This document shows, piece by piece, positions 44,555 through 64,000 of a stretch of DNA of 64,000 nucleotides; within the stretch, counting starts at the first letter, position 1, and each line of letters starts with the position of its first letter. The notes below the pieces were generated by a model, which did no database searches, was not told the DNA's origin, and was given only the letters and a program-made list of their open reading frames with translations. The DNA comes from a virus (Duplodnaviria; Caudoviricetes). A program made the position numbers and the translations under genes. The stretch lies in the IMG/VR virus record IMGVR_UViG_3300008259_002461; one strand, given 5' to 3'.

Positions 44555-44561
44555 ATGATAA

Positions 44562-45320: not shown

Positions 45321-45336
45321 ATAGTTCTCCGTACAG

Positions 45337-45357: not shown

Positions 45358-45362
45358 TACAC

Positions 45363-48109: not shown

Positions 48110-48122
48110 GATAATTATTAGT

Positions 48123-48554: not shown

Positions 48555-48555
48555 T

Positions 48556-48822
48556 ATGCTATCACTTAAAGATTCAGAAAGTTTTCAACGCGAATATTTG
48601 TTGTATAAAGCAGCTATAGAAAATATTGAAGTAGAATCTGCTCGAGAACGGGGTTTTTCTTTATTGGCCAAATTACGTGACTATTGCAATCTAATTGACG
48701 AAGGCCATAACTCGCGTAACAACGGAAATATAGATCCTAGGGCACTGCGAGATAATATTTTAGAACTAGTTGAGATTAGAAAAGAACTAACACAACTAGC
48801 AAAAGATTCTAAAATTAAATAG
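48556..48822 (+). CDS. hypothetical helical protein
   Basis: 88-aa ORF after Nudix. Confidence 0.6.
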   Translation: MLSLKDSESFQREYLLYKAAIENIEVESARERGFSLLAKLRDYCNLIDEGHNSRNNGNIDPRALRDNILELVEIRKELTQLAKDSKIK

Positions 48823-49657
48823 TTGACAATCTCTTAACTGTTATTGCACCAACCATCGGTGTAAAGCTAGGACACTGATACCTATAATTTCCAGAAATTG
48901 TTTCTGGTACTCTCCAATACAATGTACCACTGTCTTTATTTTGAGCAGCACTGCCTGTGGATACAGTTCCGTCTATAGCTACATGAACGAGTCCAGTGTT
49001 ATAAGCTACTCCAGTAGGATCTTGTATTTGAAAAGGCAAACTAGGTATTGCAGCTAAATGAAATGCTATAGTAGCTCCCGCCAAGGCATATATTGTAGGA
49101 TTGTTACCTGAGTAATGACTGTTGAATGTGTATGCTGTAGTACCTACATTATCAACACGCAACGTTGCCATTGCTGGTTCGTAGACTTGATCAATTGTTA
49201 TATTTGCTGTATCTACGTCTGCTAGATTAGCAAACGATGTGGACTCTGCAAAAGAATTACTAATTGTTATATTTCCATCTGCATCTGTTGCTGTTTCAAT
49301 ACCAGCGCCGCCTATAAACTGTACTGTTTCTCCTTGGCTAATAGGTATTTGTGCAGAATCGTCAGCAGCAATACTGAACACATTTGATAAATTTAAATTT
49401 GCATTAAATGTAATTGAATCAGTAACAGGATTTGTAGTTATAGAGATATTATTCCCTGCAATTAAATCTAACACATGTGATGTAGAGTCTGCAATAATAC
49501 TTGGTTGACCATTAGTTGATATAATTCCAAATGCATTATTAGCCTGTGACAGTGTAGAGAAACTTACATTCCATGCAGTGCCGTCATAGACCCAAGTAGA
49601 GTTACCAGATGTGTATACTGCGTTAGTTTGTGGATTGCTTGGAAAATTTAATGCCAT
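48815..49657 (-). CDS. tail-fibre-associated protein
   Basis: MALNFPSNP…TWVYDGTAW N-terminal module; cupredoxin-like C-terminus; start 49657. Confidence 0.7.
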   Translation of the reverse strand: MALNFPSNPQTNAVYTSGNSTWVYDGTAWNVSFSTLSQANNAFGIISTNGQPSIIADSTSHVLDLIAGNNISITTNPVTDSITFNANLNLSNVFSIAADDSAQIPISQGETVQFIGGAGIETATDADGNITISNSFAESTSFANLADVDTANITIDQVYEPAMATLRVDNVGTTAYTFNSHYSGNNPTIYALAGATIAFHLAAIPSLPFQIQDPTGVAYNTGLVHVAIDGTVSTGSAAQNKDSGTLYWRVPETISGNYRYQCPSFTPMVGAITVKRLSTI

Positions 49658-49668
49658 TTGATATCCTA

Positions 49669-50772
49669 TTATGCGTAAGTAGTTAAACTGCCTAGTACAG
49701 TCCAAGCAGAATCAGCTCTAATCAAAGTAAAACTAACTACATCAATTTGATTTGCTGTTCCAGCGGGCACTGTGCCGCCTTGATATTTTATTGTTTGCGT
49801 AACACCGTTAATTTGTATTGTAGAAGGAACTCTTGGAGTAGCTCCTTGAACTAAAATTAATACAGCAGAATTTGTTCTGTTGTTTGTTGTTGGAACATTT
49901 GTAAAATTAGCAGTAAAATTTGCATCTATACTTGTATGATAGAATATAGCACCTGTAGAATAATCATGTTCTACAACTCCGGTCGCGTCTACTTTTGAAT
50001 TAAAAACTTCGCTAGTTTGTTGAATGATTGTTAAACCAGACAACGTAGTATCTGTAAAAGTAGAATCAGTTAAGATGTTACTTATTGATGTGTCAACATA
50101 TGTTTTGACTGCCCCTTCAGTTGGAACCGCTGAATTACTAGCGTCAACTAATCCCGAGTCTATAGAAAATTCATCAATAGCTACTCCTAGGGTAAATCCT
50201 AGAGCTCCTATTTGTGTGAGTGTTATTTCCGCAGTAACACTTAACGTGCCGTCTGGGCTTACTGATAGACCTACACCAGGTTTTACAATTCCAGCTACTT
50301 GACTAGTTGCAATTCCTGGTATTGTTGGCTTATTTGATAAGTCACTGTAATTTCCAGACAACGCCACTACAGATAATGTAGGAAGTGTGACTGGCGGAAC
50401 AGCTGGCTGGATCCATTGCGAACTAGTTCCATCATTAACATATACGTATAGATAACCGTTAGTAGTATTTAACCATAAATTACCGTTGCCGGGGGTGGCG
50501 GGTACTGTTGTGCTTACAGAAATTGATGTTCCGCCGCCACTGCCACCGCCTACACCAGCTGAAGCTGCTTTGGCAGCAAATACACTATTAGATATATTGG
50601 ATAAATCTGTCTTAGCAATTTCAAAGCCACCACGATCTCGCCCACTAAATACTCGCAAGCTGTTAGTAGCACGATTAAAGAAAACTTCGCCGCTAGACCC
50701 CACATTTCGATCTAAAAAATCGTCTGCTCTAGGTATAATACGGATCCTATCTACTACAGGTGTTGTTGACAT
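49669..50772 (-). CDS. tail fibre-like protein
   Basis: Mtd-like N-terminus (GEVFFN…LRVFSG), GNLWLNT repeat, C-terminal NFTANFTNVP…DVVSF domain; TAAATA upstream. Confidence 0.7.
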   Translation of the reverse strand: MSTTPVVDRIRIIPRADDFLDRNVGSSGEVFFNRATNSLRVFSGRDRGGFEIAKTDLSNISNSVFAAKAASAGVGGGSGGGTSISVSTTVPATPGNGNLWLNTTNGYLYVYVNDGTSSQWIQPAVPPVTLPTLSVVALSGNYSDLSNKPTIPGIATSQVAGIVKPGVGLSVSPDGTLSVTAEITLTQIGALGFTLGVAIDEFSIDSGLVDASNSAVPTEGAVKTYVDTSISNILTDSTFTDTTLSGLTIIQQTSEVFNSKVDATGVVEHDYSTGAIFYHTSIDANFTANFTNVPTTNNRTNSAVLILVQGATPRVPSTIQINGVTQTIKYQGGTVPAGTANQIDVVSFTLIRADSAWTVLGSLTTYA

Positions 50773-50844
50773 GTTTAGTCCTCTATGTAGTATTTATTTC
50801 GGACTGAGATCGTTTTTGATAACTATATTGCATTTTACGTATAA

Positions 50845-52470
<1,626 letters not shown>

Positions 52471-53043
52471 TTAGGGTACCCAATTAAAGTTAATAACTAG
52501 TCTATGGTCGTGTGCAATTGGGCTTGTACTAGAGTGATAAGTTAAGCCGTCAAAAATAACTAATCTATCTGCCTTAGGTGATACTGTTTGATCAACAGTA
52601 AATTTTTTATTTTTGCTCCACTCGTAACTTGACACACTTAAACTTTGATCTCGTTTTTCTTTATAAAATATTGTATCACCGTCACTGTCGTTTACATAGT
52701 AAAGAGCTGTCATGTGGCCGTCGTCCCAATCTACATGAGGTTCATGAATAATTGGATATGGAGTTCTTGTAGTAAAGCCTGCTCTGATTCTAATTAATTT
52801 ACTGAGCGACATTTGACTTTCGTACAGTGCCTTAATTAATATCGATTGTGCTAGAGACATTAACGGATTCATAATCTCATTATTATTGTACATCATCAGC
52901 ACCCATGACGGGTCATAAGGTTGTATTCTGTTGTCAAATTGATTATATGCAGTATTTCTTAAATAGAACCAAGGTTGGTCAAGCATTAAATTTTCTAAAT
53001 AGGATGCATTTGCTGGTGAAGTTACGTTGTCTATAACTTTCAT
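52471..53043 (-). CDS. 2OG-Fe(II) oxygenase
   Basis: PHVD…LYYVNDSDGDT…YHSS…R. Confidence 0.85.
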   Translation of the reverse strand: MKVIDNVTSPANASYLENLMLDQPWFYLRNTAYNQFDNRIQPYDPSWVLMMYNNNEIMNPLMSLAQSILIKALYESQMSLSKLIRIRAGFTTRTPYPIIHEPHVDWDDGHMTALYYVNDSDGDTIFYKEKRDQSLSVSSYEWSKNKKFTVDQTVSPKADRLVIFDGLTYHSSTSPIAHDHRLVINFNWVP

Positions 53044-53071
53044 ATCGTGTCCTTTACGTCAAACAAGCTGG

Positions 53072-53081
53072 TAAATATTTA
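53072..53081. promoter_or_regulatory. overlapping bidirectional TAAATA (palindrome TAAATATTTA)
   Basis: Lies between the divergent ORFs starting at 53043 and 53083. Confidence 0.6.
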
Positions 53082-53082
53082 T

Positions 53083-53832
53083 ATGATATTCAATAGCCCC
53101 GAAATAAAAATTAAATTTAAAACTTTTGATCCATTTGTTTTAAAAAATCTAGCACCACTATCTGCTCAAAAAAAATATCCTTCATGGTTTAAAGATACAC
53201 CACCATTTAGCGGCGGTGGCGCCATATCAACAAACTTTGAGCCTATTCTAGCTCCAACTATTCGACGATGTCCAGCAATAAATGATTATTTTTCAACTGG
53301 TGTAACTATACCTAACTGGACCGATTTAGAATTTTTTATTGACGGACCTAAAAAGTCAATGGAATGGCGTTACTCAAATAATTACACTTCTATGGAATTA
53401 GTACAGCCGCACGATTCTAGTCAGTTTCCGCAATTAGCAAACAAGTACCTTCATGCAAAAATTGTAAGTCCGTGGATAGCTGAATGTAATTCTGACATAA
53501 AATGGTTTTTAACTAAGCCTAGTTATTTTTCTGAGTTTGATGATCAGGATGTGTTGTTCTGTGACGGAGTTGTTCAATTTTACAACAACTTTGTAACTAA
53601 TGTAAACTTATTTTTTCCTATTAGAGATCAATCCTATACTGTGAAATTTTCAGCAGGTGAGCCTTTTCAGAAGTATATTCCGCTTACAGAAAAGACGGTA
53701 AATATTACTACTGAATATTGTACCCAAGAGTATTATGACCTCGCAGCACTAAAAGGAAGAAAAATTTCCTACCATCTGGGAAAACTATACAATATTTTTA
53801 AAAGAAATAACCGCAAGGAGAGAGAAAAATGA
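53083..53832 (+). CDS. hypothetical beta-rich protein (DUF6065-like)
   Basis: TIRRCPAI…IPNW…KIVSPW…AGEPF pattern; start MIFNSP. Confidence 0.65.
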   Translation: MIFNSPEIKIKFKTFDPFVLKNLAPLSAQKKYPSWFKDTPPFSGGGAISTNFEPILAPTIRRCPAINDYFSTGVTIPNWTDLEFFIDGPKKSMEWRYSNNYTSMELVQPHDSSQFPQLANKYLHAKIVSPWIAECNSDIKWFLTKPSYFSEFDDQDVLFCDGVVQFYNNFVTNVNLFFPIRDQSYTVKFSAGEPFQKYIPLTEKTVNITTEYCTQEYYDLAALKGRKISYHLGKLYNIFKRNNRKEREK

Positions 53833-54200
53833 GTACCACAAGAATAGTCAACGGCGTAGAATACACAATACCGCCAGGAACAGAACATATATGGACTGTG
53901 CCAGAAGAAGTAGTAGTAACTGCTCCTAGAGATGAAGTAACTGTAATTGATGCAATCAACGGTCTAAGAGTGCAGGCTATAGTTCGAAATCAAAATGAAG
54001 CAAGAATACTTGCGTTAACAGATCAATTAGCTAGTATTTGGCAAAACTTTGTAGACACTACAATTACCAAAGCTGAATTAACAACACAGGTTGGTAATTT
54101 TAGAAACACTGAACTAGAAAATACAGAAGGTGTTGATAATATAACTGTTCAATTTTTTGAAACAGTAATTCTTAAAATGTTAAGCGAAAGCAATCCATGA
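53829..54200 (+). CDS. hypothetical protein
   Basis: AAGGAG RBS; coupled to the halogenase. Confidence 0.65.
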   Translation: MSTTRIVNGVEYTIPPGTEHIWTVPEEVVVTAPRDEVTVIDAINGLRVQAIVRNQNEARILALTDQLASIWQNFVDTTITKAELTTQVGNFRNTELENTEGVDNITVQFFETVILKMLSESNP

Positions 54201-55795
54201 TAAAGCCAGTTAAAAAAATTATAATAGTAGGCGGCGGCAGCGCAGGTTGGATGAGTGCCGCTGCATTAATAAAAGCATATCCTGAAAAAGAGATTGTTGT
54301 AATTGAAAGTCCAAATGTTCCAATCGTAGGCGTAGGAGAAAGCACACTTGGCGGAATTAATGACTATTGTAAATTTTTAGAAATTGACGAAAAAGATTTC
54401 ATGACATTTACTGATGCAAGTTATAAAATGAGCATCAAGTTTACTGACTTTTACGAAAAAGATGCAGGTGGATTTCATTATCCGTTTGGAAGACCATTAA
54501 CACAAGGTACTATTAACGGAATGAATGATTGGCTCGTTAAAAAAGCACTATATCCAGATACTCCAATCGGTGATTATGTAAACTGCTTTTTTCCGGCCGC
54601 TGCTCTATGGGATCATAACAAGTTTGCGTTAAACAACTACGGACTTTTTGATAACTACGAACCAGACAATGATGTAGCATATCATTTTGATGCAACAAAA
54701 TTTGGTGCTTGGCTTAGAGAAAGATATTGCAAGCCTAGAGGTGTAAAACACATACCTACTACTGTAATAGATATTAAAGTAAACGAAAATGGTGTAGAAA
54801 AACTTGTACTTGAGTCAGGCGATGAAATTTCTGCTGATTTATATGTTGACTGTACTGGCTTCAAAAGTATTCTGTTAGCAGGCGCTCTAAAAGAAGAGTT
54901 TGTATCATATAGTAATATGTTGCCAAACAATAAAGCTATAGCAACTCGAATTCCATATAAAGATAAAGAAAAAGAATTAGAACCATTTACTAATAGTACA
55001 GCTATTGGCAATGGATGGGTATGGAATATTCCTAGTTGGGAACGCTTAGGTACAGGATATGTATATAGTGATAAATTTATTACTCCAAAAGATGCTAGAG
55101 AAGAATTTAAACAACATCTAATGAGCGATAAAATGGTAGTGCCTAGAACTAGAGAAGAAGTTGATGCTCTCGAGTTTAACGATATTAGTATGCGTGTTGG
55201 AATTCACAAAAGAACTTTTGTAAAAAATGTTGTTGCTATTGGATTATCTGCAGGATTTATTGAACCACTAGAATCAAATGGCTTGTATACTGTACACGAG
55301 TTTTTATTTAAATTAATTAAAACACTTGAGCGTCCAGCAATTACCCAATGGGATAAAGATGTATACAATGCAGCAACATTTGGTATGTGGAGAAATTTTG
55401 CACAATTTGTTGCAATGCACTACGCATTAAGTATCAGGGACGATACAGAATATTGGAAGGCTAATGCTAATCGAGTTTATTCTCCAGGCATGCCGTCATT
55501 AGAGCCAGAAACTGCTATAGGATTTTATAAACTTCAAGGCGCAAAAATGTTTGAGTACGGTCATGATTCAGACATAGCAGGAATTAATTGGATTAGTGTA
55601 GGAATGAATTATTTTGTTTCTGATAAGACAACTGTAACTCTTAGACAAAATTTAAGAAGAGAAAATTTTAGAATTACTTACGACCCTATTTTTAGAATGT
55701 GGGAAGAAAGAAAAGCTCGCTGGAATGAAAGTGCAAAAAATTACGGAAGTCTTTATCAATATTTAAAAGACAACATTCATAAAGGACAAGAATAA
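54197..55795 (+). CDS. flavin-dependent (tryptophan-type) halogenase 1
   Basis: GGGSAG, GVGEST, ASYK (catalytic Lys), WVWNIP, FIEPLESNG. Confidence 0.93.
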   Translation: MIKPVKKIIIVGGGSAGWMSAAALIKAYPEKEIVVIESPNVPIVGVGESTLGGINDYCKFLEIDEKDFMTFTDASYKMSIKFTDFYEKDAGGFHYPFGRPLTQGTINGMNDWLVKKALYPDTPIGDYVNCFFPAAALWDHNKFALNNYGLFDNYEPDNDVAYHFDATKFGAWLRERYCKPRGVKHIPTTVIDIKVNENGVEKLVLESGDEISADLYVDCTGFKSILLAGALKEEFVSYSNMLPNNKAIATRIPYKDKEKELEPFTNSTAIGNGWVWNIPSWERLGTGYVYSDKFITPKDAREEFKQHLMSDKMVVPRTREEVDALEFNDISMRVGIHKRTFVKNVVAIGLSAGFIEPLESNGLYTVHEFLFKLIKTLERPAITQWDKDVYNAATFGMWRNFAQFVAMHYALSIRDDTEYWKANANRVYSPGMPSLEPETAIGFYKLQGAKMFEYGHDSDIAGINWISVGMNYFVSDKTTVTLRQNLRRENFRITYDPIFRMWEERKARWNESAKNYGSLYQYLKDNIHKGQE

Positions 55796-55796
55796 T

Positions 55797-56429
55797 ATGT
55801 TGGTTAACAATATTTTTGCTGGAAGGCTTGAACCGTCAGCTACTGTAGGCGGGTGCATAGATATTTTTGAAAATGCTTGGCCTGAGCCAGAGTTAACTAT
55901 TGCAAGGATTGAACAAGAGTGTTCAAATATTAATTCAGGTGTTGGTTGGAGTAGAGCAGGAACCGTAGGTCAAGGGCATCGACAACAAGCTCGTACTAAT
56001 TTAGGGTTAGGTATTACCTTAGGCGGCGAATCTGTTGATAGTCAAACTATGAAAGACATACACAATCAAATGTATTTTCTTTTATTAGCATCTACAATTC
56101 CGTATACTGAACGATATGAAATGAATGAATACTTGTATCATGAACCGTACCAAGCATTAAAATATAGAGACGGTGAAGAATATAAAGCACATTACGACGG
56201 TGGAACTCAATCAGGTAGATGTATTAGTGCAGTCGTATATCTCAACGACGAATACGAAGGTGGACACATTGAGTTTCCTAATTTTAAAATTAAGATAAAA
56301 CCTCAAAAAGGTATGTTGATTTTATTTCCATCTAATTTTGCGTATAAACATGTTGCACATCCTGTAACACAAGGAACAAAATATAGTCTAGTTACTTGGA
56401 TTCACGATCGTCCAATTCAAGGAATGTAA
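55797..56429 (+). CDS. 2OG-Fe(II) oxygenase, prolyl-4-hydroxylase-like
   Basis: YKAHYD…YLNDEYEGG…HVAHPV…KYSLVTW. Confidence 0.9.
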   Translation: MLVNNIFAGRLEPSATVGGCIDIFENAWPEPELTIARIEQECSNINSGVGWSRAGTVGQGHRQQARTNLGLGITLGGESVDSQTMKDIHNQMYFLLLASTIPYTERYEMNEYLYHEPYQALKYRDGEEYKAHYDGGTQSGRCISAVVYLNDEYEGGHIEFPNFKIKIKPQKGMLILFPSNFAYKHVAHPVTQGTKYSLVTWIHDRPIQGM

Positions 56430-56431
56430 CA

Positions 56432-57079
56432 ATGACTAATGCGGATCTTTTTCAAAAAAATAAGTATGTGCAAGTTAATAATGTATTGTCGCCCGAGCTG
56501 ATCAATATAGCAACTACCTATGCGTTATTAGATGAAAGAAATGATCTATCATTAGAGGAAGGCGACTCTCCACAAATTCATAATTCGCATAGCAAGTATG
56601 CTGATACGTTAATAGAAGCTTTTTTATTGTATCTGCATCCTATGATGGAAGAAAATACAGGTCTTAAGTTACATCCAACCTATTCGTATTATAGAGTTTA
56701 CAAACCTGGCGCTGATTTAGTAAAACACATCGATCGTCCTAGTTGCGAAATTTCTACTACAGTTACCTTAGGTTTTGATTATAAGGGTGCTGATTACGAA
56801 TGGCCTATATTTGTTGGCGATGCTAGATGTGCTATGCAGCCAGGTGATCTTGTAATTTATAGAGGCTGTGAAGTAGAACATTGGCGCGAAGTATTTGATG
56901 CTCCGACTAATTCGTTTCATGTGCAATTTTTCTGTCATTATGTTGATGCTAACGGACCGTATGCAGATTTTAAGTTTGATAAAAGACCGTTTATTGGATA
57001 TGATAAAGAAGGTAAATTAAACAAAACTGTTTCCAAACATTATTTTCCAAACAAAAAATATTTGACATTTACAGGATAG
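56432..57079 (+). CDS. 2OG-Fe(II) oxygenase (PKHD-type)
   Basis: YSYYRVY…LVKHIDRPSCEIS…EHWRE; start MTNA (56432). Confidence 0.85.
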   Translation: MTNADLFQKNKYVQVNNVLSPELINIATTYALLDERNDLSLEEGDSPQIHNSHSKYADTLIEAFLLYLHPMMEENTGLKLHPTYSYYRVYKPGADLVKHIDRPSCEISTTVTLGFDYKGADYEWPIFVGDARCAMQPGDLVIYRGCEVEHWREVFDAPTNSFHVQFFCHYVDANGPYADFKFDKRPFIGYDKEGKLNKTVSKHYFPNKKYLTFTG

Positions 57080-57080
57080 T

Positions 57081-57644
57081 ATGATAGAAGTATTTGATAA
57101 TATTCTATCCGCCGAAGAGTGTGATCACATAGAGCAGTTTTTAAGAGATCCAAAATTTCCTTGGTTTTTATCTATAGGACACAATCATTGTACAACAGAT
57201 TTTGATAATATTAAAAAAAATTCAAACTCTTGGTCTGGTGAAGCACTGTTACTTACACATGTATTTTATCTTGATAAATTAAAAAATTCTGATAATTATC
57301 TATTGTCAGATTTTATATTAAATAGATTCTTAGATCGTTCTAAAATTCAATTTACAGAACTATTTAGATCTAAAGCAAATCTACAACCAGCATCGCATAA
57401 TGCTAATCAAATATATACAACTCCACACATTGATGGTAATAGTGACCATAAAGTCCTAATATATTATGCCAACAACTGCGACGGAGATACGTTTATTTTT
57501 AATGATCATGCTACAGGATCTATACTAAAACAAGTTACTCCTAAAAAGGGAAGATTTTTATTATTTGATGGAAATCTATATCACGCTGCTGGCTTTCCAA
57601 GCGAATCAAATTTTAGACTTAATGTAAATTTTAATTTAATATGA
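57081..57644 (+). CDS. 2OG-Fe(II) oxygenase
   Basis: PHID…YYANNCDGDT…YHAAG…R. Confidence 0.85.
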   Translation: MIEVFDNILSAEECDHIEQFLRDPKFPWFLSIGHNHCTTDFDNIKKNSNSWSGEALLLTHVFYLDKLKNSDNYLLSDFILNRFLDRSKIQFTELFRSKANLQPASHNANQIYTTPHIDGNSDHKVLIYYANNCDGDTFIFNDHATGSILKQVTPKKGRFLLFDGNLYHAAGFPSESNFRLNVNFNLI

Positions 57645-58231
57645 TACACGGTAAAATAGAAGATTTTATTGGCATTTACGAAAATGCTGTTAGTGCAGAA
57701 CATTGCAATGCTATGATCAACTACTTTGAAAGTCTTAGAGACTATAATCTTGTTATTGATCAAGATCAATATACTACACAAGCTACTGTAAGAAAAGACG
57801 AATCAGTATTTTTATGCCACCCTGATGTAATAACATTGCCTAAAGGTTCACCTATTATTTTTCCGTTTGCAGACGCATTATGGAAATGCTACGAAGATTA
57901 TACTAAAGAGTTTGAAATGCTAAGAACTGCTGCCAAACACGGTTTTTATATGTTGCGTATACAGCGAACTGATAAAGGCGGAGGCTTTCATAATTGGCAT
58001 TTTGAAAATACTGGAAATGAAACATCAAATAGATTAGTCACATTTATGATGTATCTTAACGATGTAGAAGAAGGAGGTGAAACAGAATTCCTTTATCTCC
58101 ATAAAAGAATAAAACCTAAAGCAGGTACTATGCTAATATGGCCGTCTACCTATACACACACGCATCGAGGAAATCCTCCGCTAAGTGGAACAAAGTATAT
58201 TATAACAGGATGGTTAACATACTTTGAATAA
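57641..58231 (+). CDS. 2OG-Fe(II) oxygenase, P4H-like (HxE)
   Basis: WHFE…YLNDVEEGGETEF…THRGNPP…KYIITGW. Confidence 0.9.
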   Translation: MIHGKIEDFIGIYENAVSAEHCNAMINYFESLRDYNLVIDQDQYTTQATVRKDESVFLCHPDVITLPKGSPIIFPFADALWKCYEDYTKEFEMLRTAAKHGFYMLRIQRTDKGGGFHNWHFENTGNETSNRLVTFMMYLNDVEEGGETEFLYLHKRIKPKAGTMLIWPSTYTHTHRGNPPLSGTKYIITGWLTYFE

Positions 58232-58237
58232 GTTAAT

Positions 58238-59800
58238 ATGATTCATATAGATAAAAATTTTAAATTTGTAATTGTAGGCGGAGGTAGTGCTGGATGGATT
58301 TCTGCACTATTTGTTCGTGCAAACTTTCCTGATAGTCAGATCACTGTTATACAAAGTAGCGAAATAGGAATACTTGGAGCAGGTGAAGGTACTACTCCTC
58401 ATATTATAGATTTTTTAGATGAAATTGATGTTCCTGTAAGCAGACTAATCAAGGATGCAAAAGCAGTTTTAAAAAGCGGTATTAAATTTTCTAATTGGAA
58501 CGGTGATAGAAAATACTACTACCATTCGTTTATGGATAACCCAGAGTTGGATCATACTATATTCAGCGAATTAAAGCACACAAAGTTACCATTATTAGAT
58601 CTCGAAGTGATTGCTAACGGAGGATCATTAGATGACATAGGTTTTAATTCAGCAGCGTCTGATAGAAATTGTGTGAGATTTATTCCTAATCCATCTGCTA
58701 CTAACAAAGATTTAGATCCTATACTACACTTTACTAGATTAGGAAGAACTGCGCTTCATTTTGATGCTAACTTACTAGCATCGTGTCTTGAAAATATAGG
58801 CAGGTCAAGAGGCATTAATGTCATAGACGGCATTGTTACAAACTTTACTACTACAGACAGTGGACATATTACATCAGTTAATATTGATTCAAAAAAGATT
58901 GAATGCGATTTTGTGTTTGATTGTTCGGGCTTTAAGAGATTAGCCATTGGTAATTTGTATAAAACGCCATGGAAAAGTTACAAAGAGTATTTGCCTGCAA
59001 AGCGAGCAATGCCATTCTTTATTCCAAATAACTCACAAATAATTCCTCCTTACACAGATTCAACCGCTATGAAATGGGGATGGATGTGGAAAATTCCAGT
59101 TCAAGGCAGATTTGGTTGCGGATATGTTTATGATAGCGATAGAGTTTCTGATGAAGATGCCAAAGCAGAACTAGATCAAGAAATAGGTATTGAGGTTGAA
59201 GTGCCTAGGATATTAAACTTTGAACCAGGTAGATTTGAAAAAATATATGAAAAGAATTGTTTAGCTATTGGACTAAGTTCGGGCTTTATAGAACCGTTAG
59301 AGGCTACCTCTATATGGACGTCATTGATGATGCTGAATGCATGGATAGAAAATCCGGCGGCCATAACACATAACGATCAGACTGCTAGAGATAAAGTTAA
59401 TCAACGGCATTGTGACATGAACGATAACACTCTAGGATTTGTTTATTTTCATTATATCACAAAAAGGGATGACACTACGTTTTGGAGTAATTTCACTAAA
59501 GACAATAAGATTCCAGCATCGTTGCATAAGTTATTAGAAGAATCAAAACACACAATACCTAGTTATGATATGTTTTCTAACATAGGTCTAGACTGGGCTG
59601 CAAAGAGCTTTTTAGCATGCGGTAATGGACAAAAGTTTTTTAATCCTGATCATGCTAAAAAAATATTTGATGCTTACTATAATGGTAAAAGAAAAGACGA
59701 TTATGATCTATTAAAGTATCAGTACTTTAGAAATATTAATTTAAATTTAACAACATTAATAGATCACTATTCTTTTATAGAATATATGAGAAATAATTAA
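58238..59800 (+). CDS. flavin-dependent halogenase 2
   Basis: GGGSAG, GAGEGT, AVLK, WMWKIP, FIEPLEATS. Confidence 0.92.
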   Translation: MIHIDKNFKFVIVGGGSAGWISALFVRANFPDSQITVIQSSEIGILGAGEGTTPHIIDFLDEIDVPVSRLIKDAKAVLKSGIKFSNWNGDRKYYYHSFMDNPELDHTIFSELKHTKLPLLDLEVIANGGSLDDIGFNSAASDRNCVRFIPNPSATNKDLDPILHFTRLGRTALHFDANLLASCLENIGRSRGINVIDGIVTNFTTTDSGHITSVNIDSKKIECDFVFDCSGFKRLAIGNLYKTPWKSYKEYLPAKRAMPFFIPNNSQIIPPYTDSTAMKWGWMWKIPVQGRFGCGYVYDSDRVSDEDAKAELDQEIGIEVEVPRILNFEPGRFEKIYEKNCLAIGLSSGFIEPLEATSIWTSLMMLNAWIENPAAITHNDQTARDKVNQRHCDMNDNTLGFVYFHYITKRDDTTFWSNFTKDNKIPASLHKLLEESKHTIPSYDMFSNIGLDWAAKSFLACGNGQKFFNPDHAKKIFDAYYNGKRKDDYDLLKYQYFRNINLNLTTLIDHYSFIEYMRNN

Positions 59801-60387
59801 TGATTGTAAATAACGTTCTTTCTACTAACGATTATAACAACTTATACAATCTAGTATCGGGCGTAAACTTCCCGTGGTATTATCAACCTGATATAGCATT
59901 TAGAGGGTTTGATGAGCCTGTGCAAGATCCACGTATGTTTCCTAGTCATGGTTTTACTCATGTAGTATGGGATTGTGATCAAGGAAAAGTATCAGATGTT
60001 TTGCAATTTGTAGCACCAATTATTGAAAGTTTTCAAAAACAACTTGGTGTTAAAATTAATAATTTTTTAAGAATAAAAATAAATTTACAAACACCAATTA
60101 TTGGATATACTAACGATCACTATAATGGCCCGCATATTGATAGATTTGATCCGCACAAAACACTCATCTATTATCTTAATGACAGTGACGGTGATACTTT
60201 CATTTTTAATAAAGAATACAATCCTAACGATAAATCAACTTGGCATCCAGTTAGTCCGGATATTAAAGAAAGAGTTACTCCAATTGCAAATTCTTTATAT
60301 TTTTTAGAAAACGGATTCACTTATCATTCAGGAAGCAATCCAGTTAATAGTCCAAGAAGAATCACAATTAATATCAATTACAACTAA
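59800..60387 (+). CDS. 2OG-Fe(II) oxygenase
   Basis: PHID…YYLNDSDGDT…YHSG…RR. Confidence 0.85.
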   Translation: MIVNNVLSTNDYNNLYNLVSGVNFPWYYQPDIAFRGFDEPVQDPRMFPSHGFTHVVWDCDQGKVSDVLQFVAPIIESFQKQLGVKINNFLRIKINLQTPIIGYTNDHYNGPHIDRFDPHKTLIYYLNDSDGDTFIFNKEYNPNDKSTWHPVSPDIKERVTPIANSLYFLENGFTYHSGSNPVNSPRRITININYN

Positions 60388-60977
60388 TGGCAAATTTAAT
60401 AATAGATAGATGGTTTTCAAATCCGGTATGGGAAACTGATCTAAATTTAAACAATGACGAACTTATAGCATATGCTTACGAGCTAAAATCAAAGAAAGAC
60501 GGAATACATAAATCTAATAGAGAAGGGTGGCAATGTTCTGATATTGAAAATCCACCTAACTCTTATTTAAATTTAATAGAATCAATAAACAACACGCTGG
60601 TCGATGTGCATCGATCAATGGGATTAAAAATAGAATATCCATCATATGTTAAAGGCAGTTGGATTAATATTAATCCATATGGCAGTTACAATCTTAGACA
60701 CCTGCATCCAAGAAGTTTATTCAGTGGAGTATATTATCCTAAAGTTCCAGAAGGCGAATGTGGTGATTTAATTTTTTATAGAGATCATGTAATGCTCAGT
60801 TACTTACCAAATCATATTGTAGAAAATTGGAATGATATGACTAGTGGAACAACTGTATATAAAGCAAGGACAGGAATGCTTTTAATTTTTCCTAGTTGGT
60901 TAGAACATTCTGTTACTACTAACCTTACTAGTGAAGATAGGATTTCAATAAGTTTTAATACTAACTACGACTATTAA
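60387..60977 (+). CDS. putative 2OG-Fe(II) oxygenase (HxH type)
   Basis: WININ…HLHP…FSGVYY…IFPSWLEHSV…RISISFN. Confidence 0.85.
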   Translation: MANLIIDRWFSNPVWETDLNLNNDELIAYAYELKSKKDGIHKSNREGWQCSDIENPPNSYLNLIESINNTLVDVHRSMGLKIEYPSYVKGSWININPYGSYNLRHLHPRSLFSGVYYPKVPEGECGDLIFYRDHVMLSYLPNHIVENWNDMTSGTTVYKARTGMLLIFPSWLEHSVTTNLTSEDRISISFNTNYDY

Positions 60978-61378
60978 ATAGACGTTTTTCCTCTAGTCAG
61001 CACACCGTAGTTTTTATCGTTAAATTTGTCCATAAATCTAAAGTGTGCATCTTTAGAATATGGAATTTTTAATTCGTCTATTCTTTCTAATACTTGAGGT
61101 TGTACGAATCTTCCATAGAACGCTTCTAGATCTTCACCCCAGTTATGTCGTATGATATAATATTCTGCATAAGGGCACCAAGCTGCATATACTGCTGTGC
61201 CGCCGCCTCGTTCTATGATAACTTCCCATATTTCAACATCTTCGATTTCCATAATCCTGTCGTAGCTCCAATCAGGACTAGGTGGTAAAACTATTTTATC
61301 TGAGTCCATGTTATTATCATTCCACACTTCGTCATTAAAATCTTCAAAAATATTCTTAGTTGTCTTAAACTGAGGCAT
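60974..61378 (-). CDS. hypothetical protein
   Basis: 134-aa ORF (WEVI…VYAAWCPYAEYYII) in the halogenase-3 operon. Confidence 0.7.
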   Translation of the reverse strand: MPQFKTTKNIFEDFNDEVWNDNNMDSDKIVLPPSPDWSYDRIMEIEDVEIWEVIIERGGGTAVYAAWCPYAEYYIIRHNWGEDLEAFYGRFVQPQVLERIDELKIPYSKDAHFRFMDKFNDKNYGVLTRGKTSI

Positions 61379-61574
61379 TATCTGTTAGATCCTTTATCGA
61401 TAAATTAAGTTTTTTCCAGCTATGTTTTCCTTCGGTAGCATGCCCAGTATAAAGTTCTCCAGTTTCTTGATCAATTAAGATCCATTTCTCTGGACACTTA
61501 GTTACTACTGTAAGTGTTATTGCAGATTCTAATTCTGCAACTTTTTTACTGTTTTTTAATTTTCTTACCTTCAT
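61365..61574 (-). CDS. small hypothetical protein
   Basis: TKCPEKWILIDQETGELY; operon context. Confidence 0.7.
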   Translation of the reverse strand: MKVRKLKNSKKVAELESAITLTVVTKCPEKWILIDQETGELYTGHATEGKHSWKKLNLSIKDLTDNASV

Positions 61575-61583
61575 TACAGATAC

Positions 61584-63011
61584 CTATTGATAATTTGTAG
61601 TAATATGTTTTAGAAAGTCTGTTTCAGCAATGTGATACATGTTAGATTCTATTAGATCTTTGTGCGCCGATTCAGGATTAAGTAAGTCAAGTCCTGCCAT
61701 ACTCCAATTCCATAAGCCAATTGCAGGTGCACCAAAATTATTAGCTATTTCAAAATAACTTACTAACTTATTTTTTGATCGAGTAATAATATTATCAGCG
61801 AACGGACTAACAATATTGTTTTCTTTTATATGGCGCCAGAATGGAGTATCTGCTCTAGTGCCTTGGTAGTGCATAGAAACAAAGTCTAGATTAAGATCAT
61901 AAAAATGTGCAGTTCGCGTGTTATATGAATCTTGATTTTCTATTAGGTTTGTAGTTTTAAGATCACTTGATAAGAAGTCATTAATAAACAATAGTAGTTG
62001 AGCAATAGTAGTATGGATACTTGTAGCTTGTAGCGGTTCAACAAAACAACTTGCTAGTCCTAAGGACAATACATTTTTTTCCCAGAACTTTTCTGATCTG
62101 CCTGGGTCAAAATTTATTATCTTAATAGGAGTAATTTCTCTTCCAAGTAACTGCTCCACTTCAAGTTTAGCATCTTCTGCTGATATAAAATTATTGTTGT
62201 AAACATAACCGCATCCTCGTCGAGTTTGTAAAGGTATGTCCCACATCCAACCAGATGACAGTGCCGTAGCATCAGTCCAAGGTTTTATTTTATCATTTTG
62301 AGTATAGTCTAAAAGAAATGGCATTGCAGTATTGCAGGGCAAATACTTACTGTAGGACTTCCATCCTACATTTAATTTTTTCATTAGAATTTTATTAAAG
62401 CCGCTGCAATCAATAAAAAATTCTGATTCAATTTTTCTACCATCATCTAGAACTACTGATTGTATATGTCCGTTTTGAGGATCAAGCACACAGTCTTTAA
62501 CTATAGCGTCAATGTGTGTGATGTTATCTTTTATGCAGCGTTCTTTAAAAAACTTTCCAACTTTGTGTGCATTAAAATGAAACGCATTAAACACATTGTA
62601 GTTTCTTTCTACTTCGTAGTCTAGACCTATTTTAGAAGCGATATGAGCTTTGTCTTTACCAAACTTGTGCAGTACATATTTAAACACATGATCATTCATT
62701 CTACCAGCTGAAGGACTGCCGTCTAGGGGTGTAAAAAATGAAGTATTATCACCTAACCAATTATTAAATTTAATACCAATTTTGTTAGTTGCATCACAGT
62801 AGTCTACAAACTCTTGTAGATTAATGTCAGTTTTGAAATATCTTCCAGCTAAGAGATCAGTGAAGAATCCTGTAGATCCTTCTCCGGCACCAATAATGCC
62901 AATTTCACTTGATTCAATTACTGTAATTTTGTGTATGTTTGGCTGCGACTTACTTATACAATAAGCCGCTAGCCAACCGGCTGTGCCGCCGCCAACGATT
63001 GTTATATTCAT
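61584..63011 (-). CDS. flavin-dependent halogenase 3 (EPLQ variant)
   Basis: GGGTAG, GAGEGS, ATNK, WMWDIP, FVEPLQATS. Confidence 0.9.
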   Translation of the reverse strand: MNITIVGGGTAGWLAAYCISKSQPNIHKITVIESSEIGIIGAGEGSTGFFTDLLAGRYFKTDINLQEFVDYCDATNKIGIKFNNWLGDNTSFFTPLDGSPSAGRMNDHVFKYVLHKFGKDKAHIASKIGLDYEVERNYNVFNAFHFNAHKVGKFFKERCIKDNITHIDAIVKDCVLDPQNGHIQSVVLDDGRKIESEFFIDCSGFNKILMKKLNVGWKSYSKYLPCNTAMPFLLDYTQNDKIKPWTDATALSSGWMWDIPLQTRRGCGYVYNNNFISAEDAKLEVEQLLGREITPIKIINFDPGRSEKFWEKNVLSLGLASCFVEPLQATSIHTTIAQLLLFINDFLSSDLKTTNLIENQDSYNTRTAHFYDLNLDFVSMHYQGTRADTPFWRHIKENNIVSPFADNIITRSKNKLVSYFEIANNFGAPAIGLWNWSMAGLDLLNPESAHKDLIESNMYHIAETDFLKHITTNYQ

Positions 63012-63056
63012 ACTTTAATTTATGCTGCATGTTAGATCAAATCTAACAAAAGTGAA

Positions 63057-64000
63057 TTAAGTATTTCTGTATCGAATTACAACGACTCCAGGGCCGCCGT
63101 CACCACTTTGTGTGTTACTCCAATATCCGCCACCACCGCCTGCACCTGAATTTGTAGCGCCTGATTGTCCTGCAACTGAGCCTGTTCCGCCCTCACCTCC
63201 ACCAAACGCATTTAAACTTCCACCGTGAGCGCCTGCAAGTCCGTAATGACCGTAGTTACCTGGGGCGTGTGTACCTGCGCCACCACCGCCAGCATATCGA
63301 GTAAGAGTTCCTGTTACTTGACTTGCTAGGCCAGCACCACCTGTGCCCATTTCGTTACCACTGCTTGTTGGTTTACCAGACGATCCAGCACCGCCTCCAC
63401 CACCACCGCAGTGAATGGTAGTAGAACCTGCTGCCCAGCCAAAGCCGCCACCGTGAGCACCAAAGCCGCCAGGGTGACCTTGACCTGCTATACCGCTGCC
63501 ATATCCATTGCCTTCCATGGAAATATGATCGTTATTGTTTCCTGTAGGCGTACCTTGAAGTGTAGCATTTGGCATTCCTGCTAACCAAGGATGGTTAGTT
63601 CCTTGATTTCCGTGACCGCCGGGCGCTTGTGGCCACCAACCGCCCTCACCTCCTGCTCCTGGTGTGTGTCCGCCAGGGCCACCGCCACCACTACCACCGT
63701 TATTCAATCGTATTACTGAATGTCCAGAAGTATATGAACTACCTCTACCGCCGCCGATAGCATTGTACTGCTGAGGTATTCCTGCTCCTACTACACTAGA
63801 AGGATTTCCTGGGTTTTGATTGTTAGCATTATGCTGTGTTTCTCTTGAGCCGCCTGCGCCTACGTTAATGGTATAGTTGCCTGCGGGCAAACTGGCCTGC
63901 GATTCATATATCATTCCGCCTGCGCCACCACCACCACCAATTTGTGCACCACCACCACCACCGGCAACCATTAGTACTTCTACCTGTCCTGGATATGTCA
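63057..64000 (-). CDS. glycine-rich tail-fibre/adhesin-like protein, C-terminal part (5' truncated)
   Basis: Frame is open to the window edge (…TYPGQVEVLMVAGGGGG…YAGGGGAG…GGPGVVVIRY), a Gly-rich domain typical of phage fibres. Confidence 0.8.
   Translation of the reverse strand, partial: TYPGQVEVLMVAGGGGGAQIGGGGGAGGMIYESQASLPAGNYTINVGAGGSRETQHNANNQNPGNPSSVVGAGIPQQYNAIGGGRGSSYTSGHSVIRLNNGGSGGGGPGGHTPGAGGEGGWWPQAPGGHGNQGTNHPWLAGMPNATLQGTPTGNNNDHISMEGNGYGSGIAGQGHPGGFGAHGGGFGWAAGSTTIHCGGGGGGAGSSGKPTSSGNEMGTGGAGLASQVTGTLTRYAGGGGAGTHAPGNYGHYGLAGAHGGSLNAFGGGEGGTGSVAGQSGATNSGAGGGGGYWSNTQSGDGGPGVVVIRYRNT

What the first reader, a model, noticed from the sequence alone, without database searches (positions are those of the whole stretch)
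52471..64000. Seven 2OG-Fe(II) oxygenases and three flavin halogenases next to a Pro-Gly/Trp/His-rich fibre gene: a candidate virion protein-tailoring system
Seen: ~10.5 kb made almost wholly of oxidative tailoring enzymes in alternating halogenase-oxygenase order, with a bidirectional TAAATA at 53072. There is no NRPS/PKS, precursor-peptide transporter or flavin reductase in the window. It is flanked by fibre genes and GroEL on one side and a Gly-rich fibre domain on the other. That domain carries many X-Pro-Gly motifs (NPG, GPG, TPG, APG, HPG) and a GGWWPQ…HPW insert. Established: P4H-type enzymes hydroxylate X-Pro-Gly; FDHs halogenate Trp/Tyr-type rings, including on peptides; a cyanophage FDH (VirX1) is an active iodinase with unknown natural substrate. 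Inference: the island hydroxylates and halogenates receptor-binding or fibre proteins, possibly creating hydroxyl acceptors for the glycan island. That would be an undescribed combinatorial PTM system for host range or stability.
Basis: partly seen in the sequence, partly recalled or inferred. Interest (0 to 1): 0.8.

Follow-up and report, generated by a model that had tools for sequence, protein, structure and literature searches.

The report
Halogenase-oxygenase island beside phage fibre genes
A freshwater jumbo phage carries a late-promoter operon of three halogenases and seven iron/2-oxoglutarate oxygenases; this cluster type is known from cyanophage Syn9, and its repeated placement beside glycine-rich tail-fibre-tip genes suggests, without proving, what these abundant viral enzymes act on.

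Summary
Window 52471-63011 holds three VirX1/PrnA-type flavin halogenases and seven Fe/2OG oxygenases. It also holds a dUTPase-fold protein with a conserved Cys and three small ORFs. A Gly_rich_2 fibre gene follows and runs off the window.

The island is not a new kind. It is a member of the Syn9-type dioxygenase-halogenase cluster described by Iyer et al. 2010, including the gp43-type Cys protein (hhalign 98.9%). This scan has already reported the same island type on at least seven other genomes.

The virion-tailoring reading is partly supported.
- A TAAATA motif, 10-fold enriched upstream of genes, precedes the virion genes and the island.
- Two oxygenases are collagen-P4H-like by sequence and one is PHD-like by fold.
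- Glycine-rich ORFs lie within 10 kb of 32/80 halogenase loci, against 3/76 control loci.
- In all 6 whole records with a halogenase+2OG array, Gly_rich_2 genes abut it. They do not where the halogenase is solitary.
- Island-adjacent Gly-rich proteins carry 3.4-fold more Pro-Gly.
- H3 lies between the Gly-rich gene and a small protein predicted to bind it.

Against it: no modification has been shown, Trp is not enriched, other Gly_rich_2 phages lack the enzymes, and fibre regions are hypervariable. The secondary-metabolite reading (Iyer) remains a live rival.

The parts
48815..50772 (-). Two tail-fibre-type genes (296 and 367 aa) on the left flank
   Evidence: phrog_677 (baseplate wedge tail-fibre connector, 3e-20) and phrog_9851 (tail fibre, 2e-9). 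They are absent at this position in relatives L003-L006.
50881..52470 (+). Phage GroEL (Cpn60)
   Evidence: PF00118, E 2e-76. It stays next to the island in L001-L006.
52471..53043 (-). O1, a small 2OG-Fe(II) oxygenase (phrog_274 type, HVD...H)
   Evidence: phrog_274 1e-38; PF13759/PF13640 below cut-off.
53072..53083 (.). Divergent pair of late-type TAAATA motifs: 53072-53077 (+), 5 nt before the ATG at 53083, and 53076-53083 (-), TATAAATA, 33 nt before O1
   Evidence: Sequence. The motif is 10-fold enriched upstream of genes and precedes TerL, sheath and fibre genes.
53083..53832 (+). U261, a dUTPase-fold protein with an invariant Cys (RCPAIND); Syn9 gp43 family
   Evidence: AF2 pLDDT 81.6 with weak dUTPase/dCTP-deaminase fold matches. 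hhalign to Syn9 gp43 98.9%, E 4e-17, and to S-CREM1_70 98.5%. Invariant residues C75, D93, H122 and K138.
53829..54200 (+). U123, a small ORF of unknown function, kept only in close relatives
   Evidence: No Pfam or PHROG family. 48-60% identical in L002-L006.
54197..55795 (+). H1, a VirX1-like flavin-dependent halogenase
   Evidence: PF04820 3e-100. Full-length match to VirX1 (6QGM), 1e-99. GGGSAG, the Lys of YKMS, WVWNIP and FIEPLES are all kept.
55797..56429 (+). O2, a collagen-type prolyl-4-hydroxylase-like oxygenase
   Evidence: PF13640 4e-18. The profile hits B. anthracis P4H 1e-13, PBCV-1 P4H 1e-10, CrP4H and PHD2. H132, D134, H185 and K195 are conserved.
56432..57079 (+). U227, the seventh 2OG oxygenase (PHD/PPHD-like fold); its PHROG is mislabelled 'ferrochelatase'
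   Evidence: HID...H triad. AF2 pLDDT 86.6; best matches are P. putida PPHD and PHD2, TM 0.56-0.61. It is fused to a halogenase-like domain in L011 and L012.
57081..57644 (+). O3, a 2OG oxygenase (phrog_274 type)
   Evidence: phrog_274 6e-36; PF13640 7e-4; HID...H.
57641..58231 (+). O4, a P4H-like oxygenase (HFE...H)
   Evidence: PF13640 1e-16; sequence.
58238..59800 (+). H2, a flavin-dependent halogenase
   Evidence: PF04820 2e-94; GGGSAG, WMWKIP, FIEPLEA.
59800..60387 (+). O5, a 2OG oxygenase (clusters with O1/O3, the phrog_274 type; not itself scanned against PHROGs)
   Evidence: PF13640 2e-5. It falls in the same BLAST family as O1 and O3. HID...H.
60387..60977 (+). O6, a PF13759 oxygenase-like protein (HLH...H)
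   Evidence: PF13759 2e-22. Its only PDB relatives are uncharacterised proteins 3bvc and 2rg4.
60974..61378 (-). U134, a small partner or chaperone candidate of the Gly-rich fibre protein
   Evidence: It sits immediately downstream of Gly-rich genes in L003, L004, L006, L008, L012, L029, L038 and L069. The complex model supports binding: score 0.69, best control 0.00.
61365..61574 (-). U69, a small ORF
   Evidence: Matches the C-terminus of phrog_4098, 2e-12.
61584..63011 (-). H3, a flavin-dependent halogenase lying between the Gly-rich gene and U134, on the same strand
   Evidence: PF04820 4e-93; GGGTAG, WMWDIP, FVEPLQA. There is no TAAATA in the 45-nt gap to the Gly-rich gene. It is absent in L003, L004 and L006 and relocated in L005.
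63057..64000 (-). C-terminal 313 aa of a Gly_rich_2 fibre-tip protein (the gene runs off the window)
   Evidence: PF21722 8e-13; phrog_2295; sequence. Full-length orthologues of 398-407 aa have a MATLKNLTVNDTG N-terminus.

Best explanation
The island is a Syn9-type dioxygenase-halogenase tailoring cluster. It is carried by an uncultured freshwater jumbo phage related to PA5oct and Atu_ph07.

Anatomy:
- A divergent pair of late-type TAAATA promoters sits at about 53075.
- Leftward it drives O1. Rightward it drives an 11-gene operon with no real gaps: U261, U123, H1, O2, U227, O3, O4, H2, O5, O6.
- The third halogenase, H3, lies on the other strand in the same transcription direction as the Gly_rich_2 fibre gene. 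It sits between that gene and U134, the gene's predicted binding partner.

Inferred function: the enzymes are made together with the virion proteins and act on newly made Gly_rich_2 fibre-tip proteins before or during folding.
- The P4H-like (O2, O4) and PHD-like (U227) oxygenases hydroxylate prolines in X-Pro-Gly loops.
- The other oxygenase families oxidise further side chains.
- The VirX1-type halogenases, fed reduced flavin by host reductases, halogenate exposed aromatic side chains.

Shown: gene content, catalytic motifs, fold assignments, the promoter motif, conservation, and genomic coupling to the fibre genes. Inferred: late timing, operon structure, and above all the identity of the substrate.
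For: 1. Membership of the known cluster. There are three halogenases and seven oxygenases in at least four families, plus the gp43-type dUTPase-fold Cys protein, as described in PMC2938197.

2. Purifying selection. The whole island is kept at 60-88% amino-acid identity in at least five IMG/VR contigs.

3. Protein-hydroxylase affinities. The O2/O4 profile hits B. anthracis P4H (1e-13), PBCV-1 P4H (1e-10), CrP4H, C-P4H and PHD2. U227 matches PPHD/PHD2 by fold.

4. Late-type motif. TAAATA occurs upstream of 19/79 genes against 1.9 expected. It precedes TerL, sheath and fibre genes as well as the island.

5. Coupling to Gly-rich genes.
- Gly-rich ORFs lie within 10 kb in 32/80 halogenase loci against 3/76 GroEL control loci (Fisher p 2e-8).
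- The same holds in 15/28 halogenase clusters at 70% identity.
- Median distance from halogenase to the nearest Gly-rich ORF is 1.7 kb.
- The two gene types interleave in L021-24, L029, L051, L069 and L074.

6. Whole-record searches. PF21722 genes abut the array in Syn9, Sf-CH11, S-CREM1, P-RSM6 and two IMG/VR contigs (6/6). They do not abut it where the halogenase is solitary: S-B64 and P-SSM2 are not adjacent, and S-MbCM6 has no PF21722 gene.

7. Pro-Gly density is 3.4-fold higher in island-adjacent Gly-rich proteins than in other PF21722 proteins (cluster-level p 8e-4; observed/expected 1.11 against 0.61).

8. No scaffold-building or export gene recurs in 81 loci. The recurrent neighbours are more oxygenases, methyl- and carbamoyltransferases, fibre chaperones (PF16778, PF13884) and fibre proteins.

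9. A halogenase-like domain is fused to U227 in L011 and L012, so halogenase and hydroxylase work on one pathway.

10. U134 is modelled to bind the Gly-rich domain.
- Score 0.69; best of 3 controls 0.00.
- That mark was reached by 58 of 80 solved complexes and 2 of 110 mismatched pairs. The counts hold only roughly, because my own alignments were used.
- The runs share at least 77% of contacts, and partner pLDDT is at least 74.
- H3 is therefore embedded in a fibre-plus-partner gene unit.

11. Literature.
- VirX1 has a large open active site and no known natural substrate (PMC8407142).
- A 2OG oxygenase was detected in a cyanomyovirus virion preparation (PMC12801897).
Against: - No chemical evidence exists for hydroxylated or halogenated virion proteins in any phage of this group.
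- Five of five other PF21722 loci have no oxygenase or halogenase nearby, so the fibre fold does not need the enzymes.
- Trp and His are not enriched once related sequences are collapsed (p 0.096 and 0.63).
- The Gly-rich proteins of L029, L051 and L069 have 0-4 Pro-Gly despite several P4H-like neighbours.
- Fibre-gene regions of T4-like phages are known hypervariable regions (PMC2984593), so co-location could reflect a permissive insertion site and shared descent.
- The background set for the Pro-Gly test is narrow: 9 clusters, chosen by likeness to one query.
- Solitary halogenases in S-B64 and S-MbCM6 sit among replication or photosynthesis genes.
- To my knowledge, no flavin halogenase is known to act on a large protein.
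- The roles of the dUTPase-fold protein and of five of the seven oxygenases are unexplained.
Confidence: 0.38

Rival explanations
1. Secondary-metabolite reading (Iyer et al. 2010). The halogenases and oxygenases successively modify a free amino acid, indole or other host metabolite into a halogenated, hydroxylated small molecule during infection. The location beside fibre genes is only a permissive insertion site.
For: - This is the published interpretation of the Syn9 cluster (PMC2938197).
- All characterised close relatives of H1 act on free Trp or on small aromatics; VirX1 does so in vitro.
- The multiple unrelated oxygenase families resemble small-molecule pathways such as cephamycin.
- Carbamoyl- and methyltransferases recur in the islands.
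- Solitary halogenases occur in non-fibre contexts.
- Fibre regions are hyperplastic.
- Trp is not enriched in the neighbouring fibres.
Against: - No scaffold-building enzyme (NRPS, PKS, ATP-grasp), carrier protein or exporter recurs in 81 loci or in the window.
- O2, O4 and U227 belong to clades whose solved members are protein prolyl hydroxylases.
- The promoter motif is shared with the virion genes.
- Arrays abut Gly_rich_2 genes in 6/6 whole records across two distant phage groups.
Confidence: 0.3
2. The enzymes modify proteins, but not the Gly-rich fibres. Candidate targets are host translation factors or ribosomal proteins (as PPHD acts on EF-Tu), or other virion and assembly proteins.
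For: - U227's best structural match is P. putida PPHD in complex with EF-Tu.
- P4H/PHD-type families act on diverse proteins.
- The enzymes are absent from most Gly_rich_2 loci.
- Several linked Gly-rich proteins have few Pro-Gly.
Against: - A late-type promoter fits host takeover poorly.
- This reading does not explain the repeated adjacency to and interleaving with Gly_rich_2 genes, nor the Pro-Gly excess.
Confidence: 0.15
3. Generic auxiliary-metabolism roles proposed for cyanophage 2OG oxygenases: drawing down 2-oxoglutarate under nitrogen stress, or AlkB-like nucleic-acid repair.
For: - Proposed in PMC3037559.
- ALKBH7 appears among the fold matches of U227.
- A NUDIX gene and a dUTPase-fold gene are linked to the island.
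Against: - This phage is not a cyanomyovirus: TerL is 55% identical to PA5oct.
- Seven diverged paralogues held in an operon with three halogenases are not needed for a 2OG sink.
- There is no AlkB or TET Pfam match.
- A halogenase fused to an oxygenase points to a shared substrate.
Confidence: 0.07

Closest known systems
Syn9/Syn10-type cyanophage dioxygenase-halogenase cluster (Syn9 gp41-gp54; Iyer, Abhiman, de Souza and Aravind 2010, PMC2938197)
   Same: Tandem Trp-halogenase-type genes, many distantly related classical 2OG dioxygenases, and the gp43-type dUTPase-fold protein with a conserved Cys (hhalign 98.9%). The cluster lies directly after Gly_rich_2 'tail fiber assembly' genes (gp38, gp39).
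   Different: The host phage is a freshwater PA5oct/Atu_ph07-like jumbo phage, not a marine Kyanoviridae. There are three halogenases rather than two. No JmjC/MINA-type member was detected. One halogenase lies inside the fibre-gene unit. GroEL sits on the flank.
VirX1, the iodinating flavin halogenase of cyanophage Syn10 (PDB 6QGM)
   Same: H1 aligns over its full length (1e-99; tblastn gives about 36% identity to the Syn10/Syn9 copies). The GxGxxG, Lys, WxWxIP and EPLES motifs are kept.
   Different: Halide preference and substrate were not tested here. H2 and H3 are only 29-31% identical to H1, and H3 reads EPLQA in place of EPLES.
Collagen-type and viral prolyl 4-hydroxylases (B. anthracis P4H 5HV0; PBCV-1 P4H 5C5T; Chlamydomonas P4H 2JIG)
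   Same: O2 and O4 match by profile, and O2 keeps His, Asp, His and a Lys at +10 (O4 reads HxE). Those enzymes hydroxylate proline in extended Pro-rich or X-Pro-Gly peptides. PBCV-1 P4H is a virus-encoded case with viral proteins as proposed substrates (cited in PMC9301287).
   Different: The proposed substrate is a polyglycine-rich fibre-tip domain, not a collagen triple helix or a (Pro-Ala-Pro-Lys)n repeat. No activity has been shown.
Bacterial operons pairing dioxygenases and sulfotransferases with collagen-like or tail-collar proteins (Iyer et al. 2010)
   Same: Dioxygenases are co-encoded with glycine-rich or fibre-like proteins that are proposed as their substrates, and the hydroxyl groups are then decorated. 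This window also holds a sulfotransferase, an APS-kinase-like gene and a carbamoyltransferase.
   Different: Those operons use beta-hydroxylase and PhyH families and have no halogenases. Here the decorating enzymes lie elsewhere in the window.
T-even gp37/gp38-type fibre tip with accessory chaperone or adhesin (own knowledge, not tested)
   Same: A distal fibre protein gene is followed by a small partner gene. The domain is glycine-rich with variable loops. U134 is modelled to bind it.
   Different: No sequence relation to gp38 or gp57 was found. The partner family is unnamed.
Peptide halogenases of RiPP pathways (MibH, SrpI; own knowledge)
   Same: They are flavin halogenases that act on ribosomally made peptides rather than on free Trp.
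   Different: Those act on short leader-bearing precursor peptides inside RiPP clusters. No conserved precursor, leader or protease is present here.

Membership tests
Syn9-type dioxygenase-halogenase cluster (Iyer et al. 2010) | Two or more Trp-halogenase-type flavin enzymes with an intact Rossmann motif and the catalytic Lys | tested here: met
   H1, H2 and H3 match PF04820 at 1e-93 to 1e-100. GxGxxG, the Lys and WxWxIP are present in all three.
Syn9-type dioxygenase-halogenase cluster (Iyer et al. 2010) | A tandem array of several classical 2OG dioxygenases that are only distantly related to one another | tested here: met
   Seven oxygenases fall in at least four families: O2/O4 (PF13640), O1/O3/O5 (phrog_274 type), O6 (PF13759) and U227 (PHD-like fold).
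Syn9-type dioxygenase-halogenase cluster (Iyer et al. 2010) | [quoted passage not shown] | tested here: met
   hhalign of the U261 profile against Syn9 gp43 gives 98.9%, E 4e-17, with the CP(G/A)I motif aligned. Fold matches to dUTPase and dCTP deaminase are weak but consistent.
Syn9-type dioxygenase-halogenase cluster (Iyer et al. 2010) | A JOR/JmjC (MINA/No66-type) member such as Syn9 gp49. This is a variable component, not required in every copy. | tested here: not met
   No JmjC or Cupin_4 Pfam match in any island ORF at E <= 0.01. S-CREM1 has one. I treat it as accessory.
Flavin-dependent tryptophan-type halogenases (PF04820) | The active-site Glu of the EPLES motif | tested here: inconclusive
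   H1 reads FIEPLES, H2 FIEPLEA and H3 FVEPLQA. I could not fix which Glu is the catalytic one from the data held, so the status of H3 is open.
Flavin-dependent tryptophan-type halogenases (PF04820) | A partner flavin reductase that supplies FADH2 | tested here: not met
   None was found among about 75 window ORFs or the recurrent island families. Host reductases commonly serve (own knowledge), so this does not exclude activity.
Collagen-type prolyl 4-hydroxylases (PF13640) | The His-x-Asp...His iron triad plus a Lys 10 residues after the distal His that binds 2OG | tested here: met
   O2 family: H132 invariant, D134 nearly invariant, H185 and K195 invariant. O4 has HxE.
Collagen-type prolyl 4-hydroxylases (PF13640) | Hydroxylation of peptidyl proline in X-Pro-Gly or PPII peptides | not testable with these tools
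   Needs an enzyme assay or virion mass spectrometry.
RiPP biosynthetic cluster | A conserved short precursor peptide with a leader, plus a protease or exporter | tested here: not met
   No small ORF is conserved across the 81 loci: U123 occurs in 7 loci only. No peptidase or ABC exporter recurs.
NRPS/PKS-type secondary-metabolite cluster | A scaffold-building synthetase or carrier protein | tested here: not met
   None in the window or among the recurrent island families.

The most novel reading that the evidence does not exclude
Phages of at least two distant lineages (marine Kyanoviridae and freshwater PA5oct-like jumbo phages) use a combinatorial enzyme array to hydroxylate and halogenate the loops of their own glycine-rich receptor-binding fibre tips. 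This would be the first halogenated virion protein and the first flavin halogenase acting on a large protein. It would give VirX1-type halogenases and the very abundant viral P4H/2OG 'auxiliary' genes a natural substrate.
Probability: 0.25. Interest if true: 0.85.

Novelty: new member of a known kind. Interest (0 to 1): 0.5.

Why it matters
2OG-Fe(II)/P4H genes and prnA-like halogenases are among the commonest 'auxiliary' genes of aquatic phages. P4HA was found at 62% of Baltic water stations, and its use was called cryptic (PMC9301287). VirX1 is an established biocatalyst with no known natural substrate.

If the arrays tailor the fibre tips, these genes are virion-maturation genes, not metabolic ones. 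Host recognition would then depend on chemistry that the fibre sequence alone does not show. That would matter for host-range prediction and for the ecology of iron, oxygen and halides in infection.

The cultured carriers (Syn9, P-RSM6, S-CREM1, Sf-CH11) make the question directly testable by virion mass spectrometry.

Tried and rejected
- A megablast of the island against 50,697 phage records found nothing. No whole genome is held for the window.
- The T4 late consensus TATAAATA occurs once, against 8.3 expected. The shorter TAAATA is the real motif.
- The sigma-70 and terminator scans were at shuffle level.
- The U261 and U227 profiles found no PDB relatives by sequence, so folds were used instead. 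O5 against the PDB gave only spurious Kelch repeats.
- tblastn of the Gly-rich protein against phages failed because of the low-complexity filter. The single-protein scan found only close relatives.
- U261 has no BLAST-level hit in cultured cyanophages. Only the profile comparison found gp43.
- Metatranscriptome run X20 holds identical contigs on 53818-54712 and 58480-58630. These are Logan contigs of an RNA library that may hold DNA, so they do not show transcription, timing or strand.
- I considered a complex job of an enzyme with the Gly-rich domain. I dropped it as uninformative for transient enzyme-substrate pairs and spent the job on U134 instead.
- I considered Fe/2OG halogenases (HxA/G triad). 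None of the seven has that motif.
- I considered a nucleotide or DNA-modification role, prompted by the dUTPase fold and the NUDIX neighbour. There is no further support.

Full report
**What is there**

The window comes from an uncultured T4-superfamily jumbo phage.
- Its large terminase is 55% identical to that of Pseudomonas phage PA5oct. Its gp15-like protein is closest to those of Atu_ph07 and PA5oct.
- No whole genome is held.
- Contigs of a freshwater run and a crustacean-associated run, laid on the window, include pieces with no differences.

From 52471 to 63011 the ORFs are as follows:
- O1 (minus strand), then on the plus strand U261, U123, H1, O2, U227, O3, O4, H2, O5 and O6.
- U134, U69 and H3 on the minus strand.
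- Then the C-terminal 313 residues of a PF21722 Gly_rich_2 protein that runs off the window.

**The enzymes**

Halogenases:
- H1, H2 and H3 are PF04820 halogenases (E 1e-93 to 1e-100).
- H1 aligns end to end with VirX1 (1e-99). It keeps GxGxxG, the Lys, WxWxIP and EPLES.
- H2 and H3 are 29-39% identical to H1 and to each other. H3 reads EPLQA.

Oxygenases:
- Six ORFs match 2OG-Fe(II) families.
- The seventh, U227, has no Pfam hit and its PHROG carries a misleading 'ferrochelatase' label.
- U227 has an HID...H triad. Its AF2 model (pLDDT 86.6) matches the EF-Tu prolyl hydroxylase PPHD and HIF prolyl hydroxylase PHD2 at TM about 0.6.
- The O2/O4 profile finds B. anthracis P4H (1e-13), the PBCV-1 viral P4H (1e-10), algal and human collagen P4H, and PHD2. 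It conserves His, Asp, His and a Lys at +10.
- None of the seven has the HxA/G motif of Fe/2OG halogenases.

U261:
- It is a beta-barrel protein (pLDDT 81.6) with weak but consistent dUTPase/dCTP-deaminase fold matches and an invariant Cys.

**It is a known kind of cluster**

Iyer et al. 2010 (PMC2938197) described the Syn9 cluster. [quoted passage not shown]
- The U261 profile matches Syn9 gp43 at 98.9% (E 4e-17) with the CPGI motif aligned. It also matches the equivalent S-CREM1 gene.
- The annotated Syn9, Sf-CH11, S-CREM1 and P-RSM6 regions show the same gene set.

The window is therefore a new member of that cluster type, in a different phage lineage and habitat. A note from this scan led me to the paper, which I then read myself. 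The same scan has reported this island type on at least seven other genomes.

**Conservation**

- The whole island is kept at 60-88% amino-acid identity, in the same order, in at least five IMG/VR contigs.
- H3 is absent from three loci (L003, L004, L006) and relocated in L005.
- The number of small oxygenases varies.
- Across 80 viral loci found with H1, the halogenase almost always travels with PF13759-type (47 loci), U227-type (39), P4H-type (37) and phrog_274-type (30) oxygenases, and with U261 (28).
- In L011 and L012 a divergent halogenase-like domain is fused to U227 in one 641-658 aa protein. This ties halogenation and hydroxylation to one pathway.

**Expression signals**

- T4's TATAAATA is depleted: 1 site against 8.3 expected.
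- TAAATA is the most enriched hexamer in the 60 nt upstream of genes: 19/79 genes against 1.9 expected.
- It lies 5-8 nt before the ATG of the terminase and other virion-module genes, and 19-37 nt before the sheath and fibre genes.
- It forms the divergent pair at 53072/53076. The real U261 start is the ATG at 53083, as its relatives show.
- The ten plus-strand genes overlap or abut, so one operon is likely.
- H3, U69 and U134 follow the Gly-rich gene on the minus strand with no TAAATA between them.
- Late timing is inferred, not shown.

**Link to the fibre genes**

1. Forward test. ORFs with at least 28% Gly per 150 residues occur within 10 kb in 32/80 halogenase loci, against 3/76 control loci found with the neighbouring GroEL. 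One of those three control loci also has a halogenase. Fisher p is 2e-8. The figure is 15/28 after collapsing halogenases at 70% identity, and the median distance is 1.7 kb.

2. Gene maps. The maps show Gly-rich genes at the island edge or interleaved with halogenase and P4H genes. Each is followed by a small gene: U134, f15, or a PF16778 or PF13884 fibre chaperone.

3. Whole-record searches with PF21722.
 - Its few genes abut the array in Syn9, Sf-CH11, S-CREM1, P-RSM6 and two long IMG/VR contigs (6/6).
 - Where the halogenase stands alone, they do not. In S-B64 and P-SSM2 the PF21722 genes lie far away, and S-MbCM6 has none.

4. Reverse test. Five of five other PF21722 loci have no oxygenase or halogenase. 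The enzymes are therefore an optional addition to such fibres.

5. Composition.
 - Island-adjacent Gly-rich proteins have 3.4-fold more Pro-Gly than other PF21722 proteins. After clustering at 50% identity, p is 8e-4, and observed/expected is 1.11 against 0.61.
 - Trp (p 0.096) and His (p 0.63) do not differ.
 - The Gly-rich proteins of L029, L051 and L069 are counter-examples, with few Pro-Gly.

6. Complex model.
 - U134 is modelled to bind the Gly-rich domain through its ERGGG strand.
 - The score is 0.69 and the best of 3 controls is 0.00.
 - That mark was reached by 58 of 80 solved complexes and 2 of 110 mismatched pairs. The counts hold only roughly, because my own alignments were used.
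 - The runs share at least 77% of contacts, and partner pLDDT is at least 74.
 - The model supports binding but does not show it.

**Weighing**

These results favour enzymes that act on ribosomally made protein at the time of virion assembly, with the adjacent Gly_rich_2 fibre tips as the most likely target. Hydroxylation of X-Pro-Gly is the best-supported step. Halogenation of the fibres is weaker.

Two further points bear on the rival metabolite reading.
- The absence of any recurrent scaffold-building or export gene weakens the de novo metabolite reading. It does not weaken modification of a free amino acid or host metabolite.
- Co-location could still reflect a hyperplastic fibre region and shared descent (PMC2984593).

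I put the fibre-tailoring reading at about 0.38, the small-molecule reading of Iyer et al. at 0.30, other protein targets at 0.15 and generic 2OG or repair roles at 0.07.

**Verdict**

- It is a new member of a known kind.
- Its value is that it sharpens a testable answer to what viral halogenases and P4H-type 'auxiliary' genes act on. Cultured carriers allow virion mass spectrometry.

Noticed in passing
window-wide; e.g. 5502, 10869, 24701, 32918, 34510, 39363, 43565, 45352, 53072: The TAAATA motif usually lies only 5-8 nt before the ATG, so late mRNAs would be leaderless or nearly so. The full T4 late consensus TATAAATA is depleted (1 site against 8.3 expected).
   Followed up: partly
L011:7347-9269 and L012:10646-12619: A divergent halogenase-like domain (GVGSAG, degenerate WxWxIP) is fused to a U227-type PHD-like oxygenase in a single 641-658 aa protein.
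   Followed up: partly
window 48123-48554 (+): A NUDIX hydrolase gene (PF00293, 2e-15) sits between gp15 and the island region. It keeps that position next to gp15 in 24 of the halogenase loci.
   Followed up: no
window 7446-8930, 12400-12825, 36569-37213; loci L030, L033, L035-37, L058, L061-62, L065, L070: Carbamoyltransferase genes lie inside the halogenase/oxygenase islands of at least 11 related loci. The window itself has a carbamoyltransferase, an APS-kinase-like gene and a sulfotransferase elsewhere. These could decorate hydroxyl groups, as Iyer et al. proposed for bacterial collagen-like proteins.
   Followed up: no
L045-L050, L054, L060 (e.g. L060:2763-3329, L049:3309-3839): In one sub-group of loci the halogenase is followed by AhpC/TSA peroxiredoxin and CMD-family genes. 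A trypsin-like protease lies just upstream, and a methyltransferase and a weak sulfotransferase-like gene lie close by.
   Followed up: no
window 61584-63011 (-): H3 reads FVEPLQA where H1 has FIEPLES. This may be a Glu-to-Gln change at the active-site Glu position, and the gene is dispensable in three close relatives.
   Followed up: partly
window 60387-60977 (+): O6 (PF13759) has His-Leu-His in place of the usual HxD/E. Its only solved relatives are two uncharacterised structural-genomics proteins (3bvc, 2rg4).
   Followed up: no
window 60974-61378 (-); loci L169-L173: Gly_rich_2 genes in unrelated phages are also each followed by a 110-130 aa ORF. U134's conserved ERGGG strand is modelled to join the glycine-rich sheets, which suggests a general fibre-tip partner family without a name.
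   Followed up: partly
window 44001-64000: Contigs of a 2025 freshwater run and a crustacean-associated run, laid on this stretch, include pieces without differences. The index also lists lake-water runs and runs labelled 'fungus', so the phage seems widespread in fresh water.
   Followed up: partly
window 63407-63946: DNA contigs of other samples skip or replace 260-540 bases inside the Gly-rich gene. The fibre-tip loops therefore vary by indels between strains.
   Followed up: no
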